Assembly (NCBI GenBank): GCA_951406725.2
Contig: OX597831.1
Coordinates: 61,814,001-61,878,000, forward strand
DNA: 64,000 bases
DNA from: Octopus vulgaris
Lineage: Eukaryota
Direction: 5' to 3'
The notes beneath the pieces are model-generated. The model saw only the letters and a list, made by a program, of their open reading frames with translations, was not told where the DNA came from and made no database searches. Of this stretch, positions 5,206 through 52,705 are shown one piece after another; position 1 is the first letter of the stretch, and each line of letters opens with the position of its first letter. Made by a program: the position numbers and the translations under genes.

Positions 5206-6020
5206 GGCGGCGAACTGGCAGAATGATTAGCACGACGGGCGAAATGCGTAGCCGTATTTCGCCTGCCGCTACGTTCTGAGTTCAAATTCCGCCGAGGTCG
5301 ACTTTGCCTTTCATCCTTTCGGGGTCGATAAATTAAGTACCAGTTACGCACTGGGGTCAATATAATCGACTTAATATGTTTGTCTGTCCTTGTTTCTCCT
5401 GTATGTGTTTAGCCCCTTGTGGGTAGTAAAGAAATAGGTATTTCGTCTGCCTCTACGTTCTGAGTTCAAATTCCGCCGAGGTCCACTTTGCCTTTCATCC
5501 TTTCGAGGTCGTTAAATTAAGTACCAGTTACGCACTGGGGTCGACGTAATGGACTTAATCTCTTTGTCTTTTCTTGTTTGTCGCCTCTATGTTTAGCCCC
5601 TTGTGGGCAATAAAGAAATAAGAATCGTTAACACGTCGGGTAAAATGCATAACAGCATTTCGTACATCTTTAGCTTCTGAGTTCAAATTCCGCAGAGGGC
5701 GACTTTGCCTTTCATCCCTTTGGAGTCGGCAAAATAAATATCGGTTGAACACTGGAGTCGATATAATCGACTTACCTACTCTCACGAAATTGCTGGCCTT
5801 GTGCCAAAAGTTGAAACTAAAAGCTGGCATAATCGTTAGATCGTCGGGCAAAATACTTAGCAGTGTTTCCTCCGTCCTCATGCTCTGAGTTCAAATTCTG
5901 CCAAGTCGCCTTTGCCATTCATCCCCTCGGAGTCGTTAAAATAAGACCAGTTGAATACTGAGATCGATGTAACCGATATATCCTCCTTTAAAATTGCTGG
6001 CCCTGCGCCAAATTTTGAAG
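5206..6020 (+). mobile_element. SINE family B (GGCGGCGAGCTGGCAGAA... head), about four head-to-tail units
   Basis: Core TCTGAGTTCAAATTCCGCCGAGGTCGACTTTGCCTTTCATCC recurs near 5275, 5459, 5676 and 5884. Confidence 0.9.
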
Positions 6021-22664: not shown

Positions 22665-23247
22665 TTGGTCTCAAATTTTGACACAAGGCCAGCAATTTCG
22701 GGGAAGGAGTTAAGGAGATTGTATCGACCCCAGTACACAACTGGTACTTATCTTATCGACAAAGAAAGAATGAATGGCGAAGTCATTTGAACGGCATTTG
22801 AATGGTAGAATTTGAACTCAGCAAGTGAAGACGGACGAAATGCCTATTTCCTTACTGCTCACAAGGGGCTAAACACAGAGGGGACAAACAAGGACAGACA
22901 AACGGATTAAGTCGATTATATCGCCCCCAGTGTTTAACTGGTGCTTATTTAATCGAAAGGATGAAAGGCAAAGTTGACCTCAGCGGAATTTGAACTCTGA
23001 ACGTAGCGGCAGACGAAATATCTATTTCTTTACTACCCACAAGCGGCTAAACACACAGAGGACAAACAAGGACAGACAAACGGATTAAGTCGATTATATC
23101 GCCCCAGTGTGTAACTGGTGCTTATTTAATCGATAGGATGAAAGGCAAAGTTGACCTCGGCGGAATTTGAACTCAGAACGTAACGGCAGACGAAATACCG
23201 ATAAGCATTTCGCCTGGCGTGCTAACGGTTCTGGTAGCTCACCGTCT
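22665..23247 (-). mobile_element. SINE family B tandem units
   Basis: Head at 23247, then repeated ~180-bp bodies. Confidence 0.85.
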
Positions 23248-43422: not shown

Positions 43423-43673
43423 TGATTAATTTGCTGTTAATAATAAACAATTATTAACTTCCCAATCTCCATTTTCTTCTTTCTTCTTTTATATGAATAT
43501 AAACTATATGTTTTTATTATATATATATATATAACTATTATTTTAAGGAAATTACACCGCCCCCACCCAAATACTAGGTATTGAACGAATATTTCCTTTG
43601 ATGAAGCCATCCCTTCAAGAGGTCAACGTAACATTCAATCGCATTTATATTTATTCTTACATATATGTGTATG

Positions 43674-43729
<56 letters not shown>

Positions 43730-43825
43730 TGTACATATATATATATTATATATATATATACATCTATATATACACACACACATATATACATACATATATA
43801 TATATACACATACTCACACACACAC

Positions 43826-44039
<214 letters not shown>

Positions 44040-44046
44040 ATATATG

Positions 44047-44467
44047 CATACTAATATGGCATTCTTATAAAAATAAGAATAAAGCTGTCCGCTTATTAGC
44101 TCCATGAGGCCATCGCCTTAAGTTAGCTATTTGATACACAAACTGTATCCATATAACCTTCGAACAAGGGAGGTCAGTCGCTCCACACTACTTGACCGGC
44201 AGCTACAGACGCGTTTCGGGGTATTGCCCCTTTTCAATGCAGCGTAGCCAGCCAGTAGGTGTCGCTTCTGACAATCTCTGTTCGATGGTTTTATTTACCT
44301 AGTTTCGGTGGAATACATCCACTTGTTTTCAATAATAGAAATATTAAAATTACTAAGTCTCTCTAAAAGAGAACAGCGGCAGCGTTCCCGGAAAATAATA
44401 GTTATCGCCATACTAATATGACATTCTTATAAAAATAAGAATAAAGCTGTCCGCTTATTAGCTCCAT
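44047..44467 (-). mobile_element. 362-bp terminally redundant unit with one hammerhead (retrozyme- or pLTR-like)
   Basis: 59-bp direct repeat at 44047-44105 and 44409-44467 (1 mismatch); abuts a long (TA)n tract. Confidence 0.7.
44202..44243 (-). ncRNA. Minimal type-I hammerhead with compensated U3-A8 core
   Basis: GCUGCA UUGAAAA GGGG caaua CCCC GAAA CGCG UC UGUAGC. Confidence 0.8.
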
Positions 44468-45029
44468 AGTTACCGAGTGCTGTAAATGGTAAACTGTTAG
44501 CATCCAAGTTGATACCGGAGGATGAAGCTGGGGATCCGTAGCAGATGTTGAGTCATCGCTTTTAAATTAAAGGGAGAAGAAAACAGACCCAAAGCAGGAC
44601 AAGATTATAAGCCCGTTTAAAATATATATGTGTGCGTGTGTATATGTATGTATGTATGTATGAATGTATGTATGTATGTATGTATGTATGTATGTATGTA
44701 TGTATGCGTGAGTGAGTGTGTGTGAGTGCGTGTGTTTTGTGCCTGTATCTGTCGCCTAACATTGCTTGGTAACCGGTGTTGGTGTGTTTATGTCTCCGTA
44801 AACTAGTAGCTGTAGAAAAGAAAGCGATAAAATTAGTTCTAGTCTTTAAAAAAAAGAGGTACTGTTGTTAATTCGTTCGATTAAAATTCCTCAAGTCGTT
44901 TTCCCATCATTCCCATAATCACCCCCCCCCCCCATATATATGCTCCATACATATACAAACATACAACACACTATACACACCACTAAGACGCACGCAAACA
45001 CACACAGACACACATACACACACACACAC

Positions 45030-48135: not shown

Positions 48136-50278
48136 ATTGGTAAATCATTTTACTGCAACTACGCCAACAAGCAACATTTGTAGAACATAGGAAGAAGGTT
48201 AGTAACTAGCTTTATAAAAAGAAAATCGAAAATTAACCTTCTTCCCAAATCTATAAAGCAAAAACGAAAACAAGAATGATGTAAGACCCCCCCACGTGGT
48301 TTCGCAGAATCCATGGTCCTGCTAGCCAAATAAACTTACTGGTTCAAGTTACTGACAACTGTCTCCCTACTACCACTATGGTAAATAACACGCAGAAACC
48401 GCAACGATTATTGTAGTTGTAACGGTAGTCAGAATTATATATTTCTTTATTGCCCCCAGGGGGCTAAACATAGAGGGGACAAACAAGGACAGACAAAGGG
48501 ATTAGGTCGATTACATCGACCCCGGTTCGTAACTGGTACTTTATTTATCGACCCCGAAAGGATGAAAGGCAAAGTCGACCTCGGCGGAATTTGAACTCAG
48601 AACGTAGCTGCAGACGAAATACTGCTTAGCATTTTGCCCGAGGTGCTAAAGTTTCTGCCAGCTCGCCGCCTTGTAATGGTAGTCAGAATTATATAACGGT
48701 GAAATGTGCCCCGTCTGAAATTTTCCGAGAAAAAATAACTTTGGTTTTGAAGTACTCTCTCGAGGAGAGAGTATTCTCTACCAAACTAAGTAAAGAAAAA
48801 AAAACCCCACCAGATACGGTATTAAAAGCAGTTAAAGAAATTGGAGTATATTAGCAACAGTATGATGAACTCACATTCTACCAGATTAACGCCTGTCTAT
48901 ATGATCCGGCTATTACTACAAAGCAGTACTTGAATGGCATTCAAAAAGGAAGCAAAACCGAAACAAAAAAGAAAGTACAATCATTGGATTTGAAGAGAGA
49001 GAAAAGGATAACTGGTTTACGGAAGACCATCTGTTATGTGATGATGCTTATTGCGTGCAAACAATTAAACCACTGTACGTCCCACTATAAGAAGGTGATA
49101 GAAAAGATGTTTGCAGACAACAACAAGAGGACACACACTTGCAAAGAGACTACCCTCAAGCAGGAGCTAAAAGCTGTCTGTGAAAAGCTCCGGCATCAGG
49201 AGAGAATAACCGAGAGAACAATATATGAGCAAAAGAATATACATGAATATGTTAGTATAAAGCTCCAAGATGATAGTAACATTGATCATCAAAGCAGTCT
49301 ATCATGGATCAATAGCCGGATTACTACCTCCCACTTTGAAGGGTATGCGTTTGCAATCCAGGAACAAGAAATATCAACCAAATACCTGATGCTCAATAGG
49401 GATAGAGATGCAAGAAAAGCAATAAAACGTGACAACAGATGCAGACTTTATGAAATTAACACCGAAGATATCACCCACATCATAACATAAGCAGTTGTGT
49501 GAAAGTATCCACAAGGTTATATCAACCGATGAGACAGGATATTGTTGCTAGGACACTCTATAATGTAATCTGTCGGAAGGATAACCCCGATGACAAATGA
49601 ATAAGGACCCACAGCATGGTAGAAGCCGGAGCCACTCATAAGAAAAAGGAGTACTGGTAGTATGTCCCAGTGAAGACCTCAGTATAATGTAAACACAACA
49701 GACCTGATATAATGATTTGGGATACAGAAGAGAAGCTGAGGACAGTTGTTGAAAGTAGCTGCCCAGCGGATGTTAACATAAAGCGGAAGAGCAATGAAAA
49801 AGAGAATGCCTATGCTGAATTTTTGAGCATTCTGCAGTTACCCTATCCAGATTACAAGTTCAGGTTTATAACTGTAACTATTGGGGCCCTGAGATATGTA
49901 ACATACTGCCTAAATGCCAATCTTGAGAAATTAGGCTTCTCAAAACCAGAAAGAATGAAGATAATTCGAAGACTGCAGACCTAAGCCATCAGTTGAACTG
50001 CAAAAATCTGTAAAACTCTCCAGAAGTTTATCATTCAAATACATATGAACATCTCTAGATAGGCAACTATATACATGAGAATATATACATAAAACAAAAC
50101 ATACAATTCTGCACATATGCATGCATACAAATATACATATATACATACAGAAAGACAGACAGACAGACAAAAATGCCGTTTGTGATGTTCAAATTCCAAT
50201 GAAGGGACCTTGAATCTAGGTTAAAAATCATCTCTTTCTTTATTGGCAAGTAATCTTGAAATAAACTGAATAATAACA
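48136..50278 (+). mobile_element. R4/Dong-like LINE lacking the RT domain, 3' end intact
   Basis: N-terminal region joins the post-RT region at ~49223; RPDIMIWD endonuclease; 3' UTR matches 17760-17870. Confidence 0.85.
48442..48670 (-). mobile_element. SINE family B nested in the LINE, 25-bp TSD
   Basis: TTGTAA(C/T)GGTAGTCAGAATTATATA at 48417-48441 and 48671-48695. Confidence 0.92.
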
Positions 50279-51964: not shown

Positions 51965-52331
51965 ATTTCGTTTGCCGCTACCTTTCAGAGTTCAAATTCC
52001 GCCGAGGTCGACTTTGCCTTTCATCCTTTCTGGGTCGATTAAATAAGTATCAGTTACGCACTGGGGTCGATATAATCGACTTAATCCGTTTGTCTGTCCT
52101 TGTTTGTCCTCTTTGTGTTTAGCCCCTTGTGGGTAGTAAAGAAATAGGTATTTCGTCTGCCGCTACGTTCTGAGTTCAAATTCCGCCGAGGTCGACTTTA
52201 CCTTTCATTCTTTCGGGGTCGATTAAATAAGTACCAGTTACGCACTGGGGTCGATATAATCGACTTAATCCGTTTGTGTGTCCTTGTTTGTCCTCTATGT
52301 GTTTAGCCCCTTGTGGGTAGTAAAGAAATAG
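51965..52331 (+). mobile_element. SINE family B headless tandem dimer
   Basis: Two near-identical ~184-bp bodies. Confidence 0.88.
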
Positions 52332-52705
52332 TTATATATTATGGTTGTGGTTATTAGGGGGTGATCAGTCCACATAATCCTTTTATCATTGGTCAAAATA
52401 CCCTGCAGTATTTCTTCCGACTCGTAAGGAGACTATGATAAAAAGTTATAACTATGTGGCAATACTTTTTCTTTTTCTGTCTTCATTTCACTCTCATAGG
52501 ATATTGAATCCTGAGTCACTTTATCTACGTTTGATATGAACGCAGAGAAAGTTTTTGGAAGAAGTCTTAGATGCTTTCTGAACAATTACTAACTGCAATA
52601 AACACTCATTATTACTGGCTTGAAAGCCAGCTTTAGTCAAGTCTCACTGAACAGAGGATACATTATGTGTGTGGCGCTGGGGATGCATGCGTGTATGCTT
52701 GTGTG

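What the first reader, a model, noticed from the sequence alone, without database searches (positions are those of the whole stretch)
44202..44243. Hammerhead with compensated U3-A8 catalytic core
Seen: the core reads UUGAAAA instead of CUGANGA, so C3>U and G8>A occur together. Stem I (6 bp), stem II (GGGG/CCCC), GAAA, the CGCG stem III and the GUC site are all intact. Established: positions 3 and 8 form a Watson-Crick pair in the active fold, and U3-A8 is a rarer functional variant. Inference: the double change points to selection for cleavage, and a CUGANGA-only search would miss this family.
Basis: partly seen in the sequence, partly recalled or inferred. Interest (0 to 1): 0.72.

Follow-up and report, generated by a model that had tools for sequence, protein, structure and literature searches.

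The report
Jumping-repeat hammerhead with U-A core
This is one copy of a young 362-base repeat, present over a thousand times in this genome, that carries a predicted self-cutting RNA with an already published U-A swap in its core and is likely spread by Penelope-type jumping genes; a related repeat family in the same genome likely shows the swap being undone step by step.

Summary
Observation confirmed, on the minus strand: a complete type I hammerhead with U3-A8. It lies in a 362-nt unit with 1,123 pattern matches genome-wide; 1,116 are U3-A8, none C3-G8, so this is the family state, not a doubly mutated copy. Across related families the stems covary (97% of cells paired) and stem III stays a palindrome, which predicts cleavage as a dimer. 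Tandem and inverted arrays, (TA)n targets and two fixed 3' ends (48 of 48 scorable inverted insertions use one of each) mark a non-LTR retrozyme likely moved by Penelope-like enzymes. U3-A8 is in print (Perreault 2011; Cervera and de la Pena 2014), and this scan has noted such elements several times on other DNA, so novelty is low. The inference of selection for cleavage is only partly supported: a related family has U-A, C.A (25 copies, 18 loci) and C-G subfamilies, with a tree favouring U-A to C.A to C-G, and a Penelope-like element carries U.G. Pairing seems favoured, but mismatched cores still spread. Cleavage is untested, and U-A did not rescue activity in one published mutant scan.

The parts
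44202..44243 (-). Type I hammerhead motif: stem I 44243-44238 with 44207-44202; predicted cleavage between 44208 and 44207
   Evidence: Sequence; fold; covariation
44231..44237 (-). Core positions 3-9, with U3 (44237) and A8 (44232)
   Evidence: Sequence; genome counts
44218..44230 (-). Stem II (4 G-C pairs) and 5-nt loop 2
44209..44214 (-). Palindromic stem/loop III (ACGCGU), predicted dimer helix
   Evidence: cofold of two 42-mers gives the double hammerhead, -31.9 kcal/mol; palindrome kept as ACAUGU and ACCGGU in relatives
44150..44290 (-). Long extension of stem I enclosing the ribozyme, with an internal loop next to stem I
   Evidence: z -7.2; conserved letters beside stem I
44106..44467 (-). 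One 362-nt repeat unit (retrozyme monomer)
44047..44105 (-). 59-nt start of a second unit (direct repeat of 44409-44467); 3' end of this insertion
   Evidence: family D12
44332..44398 (-). 'Tail' between the family's two fixed 3' ends: short site about 44398-44392, long site about 44335-44332
43661..44045 (.). (TA)n microsatellite at the 3' end, the usual target
   Evidence: 113 of 136 family 3' ends are followed by TA-rich DNA

Best explanation
This is one inserted copy (1.16 units) of a 362-nt non-coding repeat whose units each carry a U3-A8 type I hammerhead that is predicted to cut as a dimer, and the repeat is likely a non-LTR retrozyme copied into (TA)n by the enzymes of a Penelope-like element. 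Shown: anatomy, copy number, fixation of U3-A8, covariation, arrays, inverted arms, two fixed 3' ends, TA targets. Inferred: transcripts of tandem arrays pair through the ACGCGU palindromes, cut after GUC and release monomers that are ligated into circles; a Penelope-like RT/endonuclease nicks (TA)n and starts reverse transcription at the short and the long site, one for each target strand, running through the cut site and sometimes several times round. U3-A8 likely keeps the 3-8 pair of the active fold. This window copy has a single ribozyme, so by itself it could not release a monomer.
For: 151 matches among the 40 best of 1,093 candidates, full units 98-100% identical, in arrays of period 362. 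1,123 ribozyme matches and 4,281 tail matches (controls 0). U3-A8 in 1,116 of 1,123. Subfamily changes mostly keep structure: N7 A/C/U, G-C to A-U at 10.1-11.1, ACGCGU to ACAUGU, G.U to A-U or G-C in stem I. In 11 hand-picked motifs from several families 97.4% of cells pair (shuffles 76.4%, 0 of 500 as high), 9 of 14 pairs change on both sides. Circular monomer z -6.8, 0 of 100 shuffles as stable. 48 of 59 inverted insertions have both ends at a fixed site and all 48 are short+long, as for the PLE tail and two RT start sites (PMC11167929); Penelope-like elements of this genome show the same two-ended inverted pattern in (TA)n. 42 of 94 arms run through the cut site, 12 of them two to five times. 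Axolotl retrozyme ribozymes with one pair plus a palindromic tetraloop cut poorly as monomers and well as dimers (PMC7229834).
Against: No cleavage or RNA data here. In a full pairwise mutant scan of a type III hammerhead only the G3-C8 swap rescued activity (PMC9901934). Hammerhead cleavage was not needed for PLE insertion in vitro (PMC11167929), and 8 of 9 Xenopus retrozyme dimers did not cleave (bioRxiv 2026.07.22.740005). Mismatched cores also spread. Between subfamilies A and C the ribozyme is no less diverged than the rest (8 of 42 against 47 of 319) and one change breaks the outer stem I pair. In a full tandem dimer the nested two-ribozyme fold is 8.4 kcal/mol less stable than two separate folds (kissing forms cannot be modelled). 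No 5' ends at the cut site (0 of 94; 2.1 expected), which fits circles or uncut precursors equally. The autonomous partner was not identified: no significant similarity between the unit and the Penelope-like ends fetched.
Confidence: 0.75

Rival explanations
1. Same element and same carrier, but the ribozyme is weak or vestigial: arrays are copied from uncut read-through transcripts, and the motif is kept for its fold (or cuts only with protein help).
For: C3.A8 lineage with 25 copies at 18 loci, including a trimer and inverted arms; U3.G8 motif with a 2-pair stem II and a broken first stem I pair in a recently active Penelope-like element; PMC11167929 (cleavage dispensable in vitro, ribozyme protein-assisted); PMC9901934; no 5' ends at the cut site.
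Against: All catalytic positions are nearly invariant across subfamilies 80-88% alike while N7 varies; the palindrome changes in pairs across families; in the related family the mismatch was likely repaired to C-G; arms of up to 5.5 units are easiest to explain from a circle.
Confidence: 0.17
2. The unit is the detached terminal repeat (pLTR) of an autonomous Penelope-like element rather than a free retrozyme.
For: PLE-type ends and inversions; U3-A8 minimal hammerheads occur in pLTRs here (L157) and in Schistosoma; retrozymes are proposed to derive from pLTRs.
Against: None of 91 family loci shows the unit joined to a PLE reading frame (the RT fragment near L122 lies beyond a long TA tract); arrays are pure head-to-tail units; the ribozyme has the canonical 6-bp/4-bp layout, not the minimal PLE layout.
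Confidence: 0.06
3. A chance look-alike or a single decayed C3-G8 copy in satellite DNA.
For: Rfam finds nothing; the 42-mer alone folds only modestly (z -1.9).
Against: 0 of 1,123 family matches are C3-G8; covariation; dispersed young insertions with fixed ends.
Confidence: 0.02

Closest known systems
Animal non-LTR retrozymes (Cervera and de la Pena 2020, PMC7229834; Li, Clavereau, Pollet 2026, bioRxiv 10.64898/2026.07.22.740005)
   Same: Non-coding tandem unit in the reported size range (mussel 350-390, axolotl 330/350), canonical type I hammerhead in each unit, palindromic weak helix III like axolotl HHR_Amex1, low GC, self-paired monomer, PLEs in the same genome.
   Different: U3-A8 core (not mentioned for retrozymes in the parts read); clear PLE footprints (inverted arms, two fixed ends, TA targets); circular RNA and cleavage not shown here.
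U3-A8 minimal hammerheads of Schistosoma Cercyon PLEs (Cervera and de la Pena 2014, PMC4209133)
   Same: Same U3-A8 covariation (about 1,300 hits there), type I, dimer-type helix III, PLE link.
   Different: Those are minimal motifs (long helix II, short helix I, extra nucleotide after A9), heterogeneous and mostly single; this one is canonical in layout, homogeneous and in non-coding tandem units.
Natural core variants in Perreault et al. 2011 (PMC3088659)
   Same: Reports U3-A8 covariation in several natural hammerheads and cites prior in vitro activity.
   Different: Scattered examples; here it is the majority state of several families in one genome, beside C.A, U.G and C-G states.
Penelope-like elements, PAc of Anolis (PMC11167929) and Neptune/Nematis clades (PMC8557442)
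   Same: Two internal 3' ends ('tail'), AT-rich or microsatellite targets, inverted 5'-truncated arm, hammerhead.
   Different: No reading frame; tail about 60 nt rather than 30-40; partner element not identified.

Membership tests
Type I hammerhead ribozyme | Conserved core (U4 G5 A6, A9, G12 A13 A14, A15.1-U16.1, H17) with three helices, open at helix I | tested here: met
Type I hammerhead ribozyme | Watson-Crick pair between positions 3 and 8 | tested here: met
   U3-A8 in 1,116 of 1,123; C-G and U-A both occur in a related family
Type I hammerhead ribozyme | Loop 1-loop 2 tertiary contact | tested here: inconclusive
   Letters next to stem I and in loop 2 are conserved across families; that they form the known contact is recalled, not tested
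Type I hammerhead ribozyme | Self-cleavage after NUH | not testable with these tools
   No assay; only contigs, no raw reads
Type I hammerhead ribozyme | Match to an Rfam hammerhead model | tested here: not met
   a library miss for a variant core with almost no helix III, not a structural failure
Non-LTR retrozyme | Tandem repeats of 150-450 bp with a type I hammerhead in each unit, at least two consecutive complete units in some loci | tested here: met
   Period 362, arrays up to 5.5 units; the window copy itself has one ribozyme
Non-LTR retrozyme | Non-coding, GC below 50%, highly self-paired monomer | tested here: met
   Stops in all six frames of a dimer; circular fold z -6.8
Non-LTR retrozyme | Expressed as linear and circular monomer RNA | not testable with these tools
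   No holder on record as RNA; contigs cannot show circles
Penelope-like element (autonomous) | RT and GIY-YIG reading frame between pLTRs | tested here: not met
   No such frame attached in 91 loci
Penelope-like element (insertion footprint) | Tail with two ends, inverted 5'-truncated arm, microsatellite or AT-rich target | tested here: met
   comparison
PLE minimal hammerhead (min-HHR) | Long helix II, short helix I, extra nucleotide between 9 and 10.1 | tested here: not met
   6-bp helix I, 4-bp helix II, no extra nucleotide

The most novel reading that the evidence does not exclude
This genome holds a clade of ~360-nt retrozymes whose ancestral hammerhead core is U3-A8, and one family has been caught reverting to the textbook C3-G8 pair through a C3.A8 mismatch lineage that itself transposed at least 18 times. 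That is a natural, step-by-step record of a compensatory change inside a ribozyme active site, with all states available as young near-identical copies, and a direct way to ask whether self-cleavage is needed for retrozymes to spread.
Probability: 0.5. Interest if true: 0.62.

Novelty: new member of a known kind. Interest (0 to 1): 0.36.

Why it matters
The swap itself is known. What is useful is the setting: U3-A8 is the majority core of several young, high-copy families in one animal genome and is invisible to Rfam and CUGANGA searches, so retrozyme counts made with standard descriptors are likely too low. The related family with U-A, C.A and C-G subfamilies on 90-96% identical backgrounds offers natural controls for two open questions: which contexts tolerate exchange of the 3-8 pair, and whether hammerhead cleavage is required for Penelope-driven spread.

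Tried and rejected
Rfam at gathering score and at E<=10: no hammerhead hit. Sequencing runs: no RNA holder listed; four runs laid, all contigs, which hold pieces of the unit but cannot show strand, ends or circles. A pile-up of 5' ends at the cut site as a sign of cleaved linear templates: 0 of 94, 3 of 155 arms at 260-264 in the larger, partly ribozyme-selected set. Search for the autonomous partner: Penelope-like frames near L120 and L122 are separate insertions; Penelope-like elements L157 and L182-L186 share the end pattern but no significant sequence with the unit; Pfam gave no hit for two RT fragments and a weak RVT_1 hit for a third. A second hammerhead-like stretch at 44332-44296 failed the relaxed scan. 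The 153 nt at 44468-44620 matched no other copy and had near-zero depth in the runs: treated as flank. Przybilski and Hammann 2007 and Lunse et al. 2017 are not held. Homology between the window's family and family 3 outside the core is only weak (z 2.5-3.6).

Full report
OBSERVATION. On the minus strand, 44243-44202 reads GCUGCA UUGAAAA GGGG CAAUA CCCC GAA ACGCGU C UGUAGC: a type I hammerhead with U3 and A8, a 6-pair stem I (one G.U), a 4-pair stem II and a palindromic helix III. The stem II-GAAA-GUC pattern occurs once in the window and in 0 of 100 shuffles. A relaxed scan with positions 3 and 8 free found only this site in the window. The 42-mer folds into stems I and II (z -1.9) and the 141 nt around it into a long extension of stem I (z -7.2). 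Rfam misses it.

THE ELEMENT. The motif lies in a 362-nt unit (44467-44106) followed by 59 nt of a second unit and a (TA)n tract. A DNA search of the genome (G000, 2.8 Gb) had 1,093 candidates, scored 40 and gave 151 matches, full units 98-100% identical, in head-to-tail arrays. Pattern counts are 1,123 for the ribozyme and 4,281 for a tail 20-mer, controls 0. A doubled unit has stops in all six frames. As a circle it folds at -120 kcal/mol, z -6.8. The repeat content looks octopus-like; that label is recalled and comes from no call of mine other than earlier scan notes.

IS U3-A8 FIXED? Yes. Of 1,123 matches, 6 lack U3 (3 C3.A8; 3 read A3, from two 1-nt deletions and one junction), 1 is U3.G8, none is C3-G8. 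The pattern fixes the rest of the ribozyme, so it counts subfamilies A and B only; subfamily C was 12 of 12 U3-A8. Among 117 units, majority letters of A and B differ at 2 of 42 ribozyme positions (N7; G.U to A-U) against 39 of 320 elsewhere. A and C differ at 8 of 42 against 47 of 319, so no lower rate there, but seven changes are in N7, loop 2 or keep pairing (10.1-11.1 G-C to A-U, ACGCGU to ACAUGU, G.U to G-C) and one breaks the outer stem I pair. Both palindrome changes are of the CpG-decay type, so mutation bias may contribute.

OTHER FAMILIES. A looser U-A pattern that excludes this family gave 344 matches (control 27), mostly family 3 (period ~358-360, stem II GAGG/CCUC, ACCGGU) and family 4. 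In an alignment of 11 motifs that I picked by hand from these families, 97.4% of cells pair (shuffled 76.4%, 0 of 500 as high; slid controls 27-51%), and 9 of 14 pairs change on both sides, including the centre of the palindrome. The 3-8 pair is U-A in all 11 by selection and says nothing there. Family 1 and family 3 are at most distantly related outside the core (z 2.5-3.6).

ALL FOUR 3/8 STATES. A C3 pattern gave 186 matches (control 36). Of the 100 listed, about 57 are C3-G8 members of family 3 and 13 are a C3.A8 subfamily, which totals 25 copies at 18 loci, 98.6% alike, with a trimer and inverted arms ending in (TA)n. With positions 3 and 8 masked, a tree of 58 copies (59 collected after leaving out overlapping fetches, 1 truncated row dropped) puts C.A and C-G together on a 100/99 branch inside U-A diversity. 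Rooting by family 4 on C-G or on C-G plus C.A is rejected (p-AU 0.004, 0.008); rooting on C.A is not (0.086). The C-G clade is weak (79/77) and C.A as its own clade is not rejected (0.395). The simplest order is U-A, C.A, C-G. A later G8-to-A change at a CpG in a C-G ancestor needs one more step and is not excluded; the outgroup is distant (64-66% alike). A U3.G8 pattern gave 85 matches (control 20), about 66 of them one minimal motif in the terminal repeats of a Penelope-like element with RT, CxxC linker and C-terminal endonuclease, Neptune/Nematis-like by the description in PMC8557442; a close relative has U3-A8 (L157). An older, unrelated-bodied C3-G8 family shares stem I and ACGCGU with subfamily B. 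So pairing at 3-8 is the rule and seems to be restored after loss, but unpaired cores can still be copied.

HOW IT MOVES. 3' ends cluster at unit positions 70-76 and 133-137, and 113 of 136 are followed by TA-rich DNA. Penelope-like elements here show the same pattern with a 36-40-nt tail. In vitro, the PAc element nicks AT-rich DNA on both strands and starts reverse transcription at two internal sites that bound the genomic tail (PMC11167929). In 52 loci chosen by the tail pattern, 42 of 94 arms cross the cut site, 12 of them two to five times; no arm starts at the cut site, while 19 start at 291-317, just inside the 3' arm of the long hairpin (7 expected; range chosen after seeing the data). 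The template is therefore a circle or an uncut multimer, not a cut linear monomer. The window copy is a single arm ending at position 59, a little short of the usual site.

HOW IT WOULD CUT. A monomer cannot close helix III; two 42-mers cofold into the double hammerhead as the minimum-energy state (-31.9 against 2 x -12.9 kcal/mol). In a whole tandem dimer the nested version costs 8.4 kcal/mol, and the kissing version cannot be modelled. The axolotl retrozyme ribozyme with the same helix III layout cuts 6% as monomer and efficiently as dimer (PMC7229834). Against easy optimism: only G3-C8 rescued activity in a full double-mutant scan of one type III ribozyme (PMC9901934), PLE ribozymes are slow (PMC4209133), cleavage was dispensable for PAc insertion, and 8 of 9 Xenopus dimers did not cut.

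WHAT IS KNOWN. U3-A8 in nature: Perreault 2011 (PMC3088659, passages) and about 1,300 Schistosoma PLE motifs (PMC4209133, parts 1-2 of 4). Retrozymes: PMC7229834 (parts 2-3 of 6) and bioRxiv 2026.07.22.740005 (parts 1-3 of 5). Also seen: PMC11167929 (parts 1-2 of 4); passages of PMC8557442, PMC6765202, PMC6155905, PMC3884650, PMC9901934. Przybilski and Hammann 2007 and Lunse 2017 were seen only as citations. No supplements were read; those of Cervera 2014 and 2020 and of Lunse 2017 may already list U-A retrozymes or cephalopod motifs. Searches found no paper on octopus hammerheads or on a natural C3.A8 lineage; these are string searches of an open-access library only. Earlier notes of this scan describe the same kind of element in this and other genomes; none came up for the mismatch intermediate.

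VERDICT. Real, family-wide, and a new member of a known kind. Interest 0.36; the best lead is the three-state family beside it.

Noticed in passing
L167-L181 (e.g. G000:C4:80857199, C1:20002278): Family 3 retrozymes with U3-A8, C3.A8 (25 copies, 18 loci) and C3-G8 subfamilies; tree favours U-A to C.A to C-G.
   Followed up: yes
L182-L186, L157: Recently active Penelope-like element (RT, CxxC linker, C-terminal endonuclease) whose terminal repeats carry a minimal hammerhead with U3.G8, a 2-pair stem II and a broken first stem I pair (about 66 matches); a relative has U3-A8.
   Followed up: partly
L166:2639-8009 (G000:C7:79858638-79864009): A ~5.4-kb two-frame LINE (zinc knuckle ORF1; endonuclease-RT ORF2) inserted in a family unit about 10-15 nt upstream of the ribozyme, with a duplication of at least 15 nt. 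One locus only.
   Followed up: partly
window 44296-44332, minus strand: A second hammerhead-like stretch (UUGAAAA, a 4-pair hairpin, GAAAC..GUA) that begins exactly at the long 3' end; nearly unchanged between subfamilies A and B, but with no proper stem I.
   Followed up: partly
L038-L054: Older C3-G8 hammerhead family with a long AU-rich stem II, sharing stem I and ACGCGU with subfamily B; copies about 80-88% alike.
   Followed up: partly
family loci, unit positions 291-317 (window 44177-44151): 5' ends and inversion joints cluster just inside the 3' arm of the long hairpin (19 of 94 arms), perhaps where reverse transcription stalls.
   Followed up: partly
L138/L159, L160, L165, L148/L161, L144/L162: Further U3-A8 minimal hammerhead families, one in a ~653-nt tandem pair.
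   Followed up: no
window 5254-5620, 22808-23199, 51965-52335: Tandem dimers of a 178-184-nt SINE-like repeat.
   Followed up: no
window 48855-49490: 211-aa open frame resembling the C-terminal part of a LINE reverse transcriptase seen in L161 (by eye).
   Followed up: no
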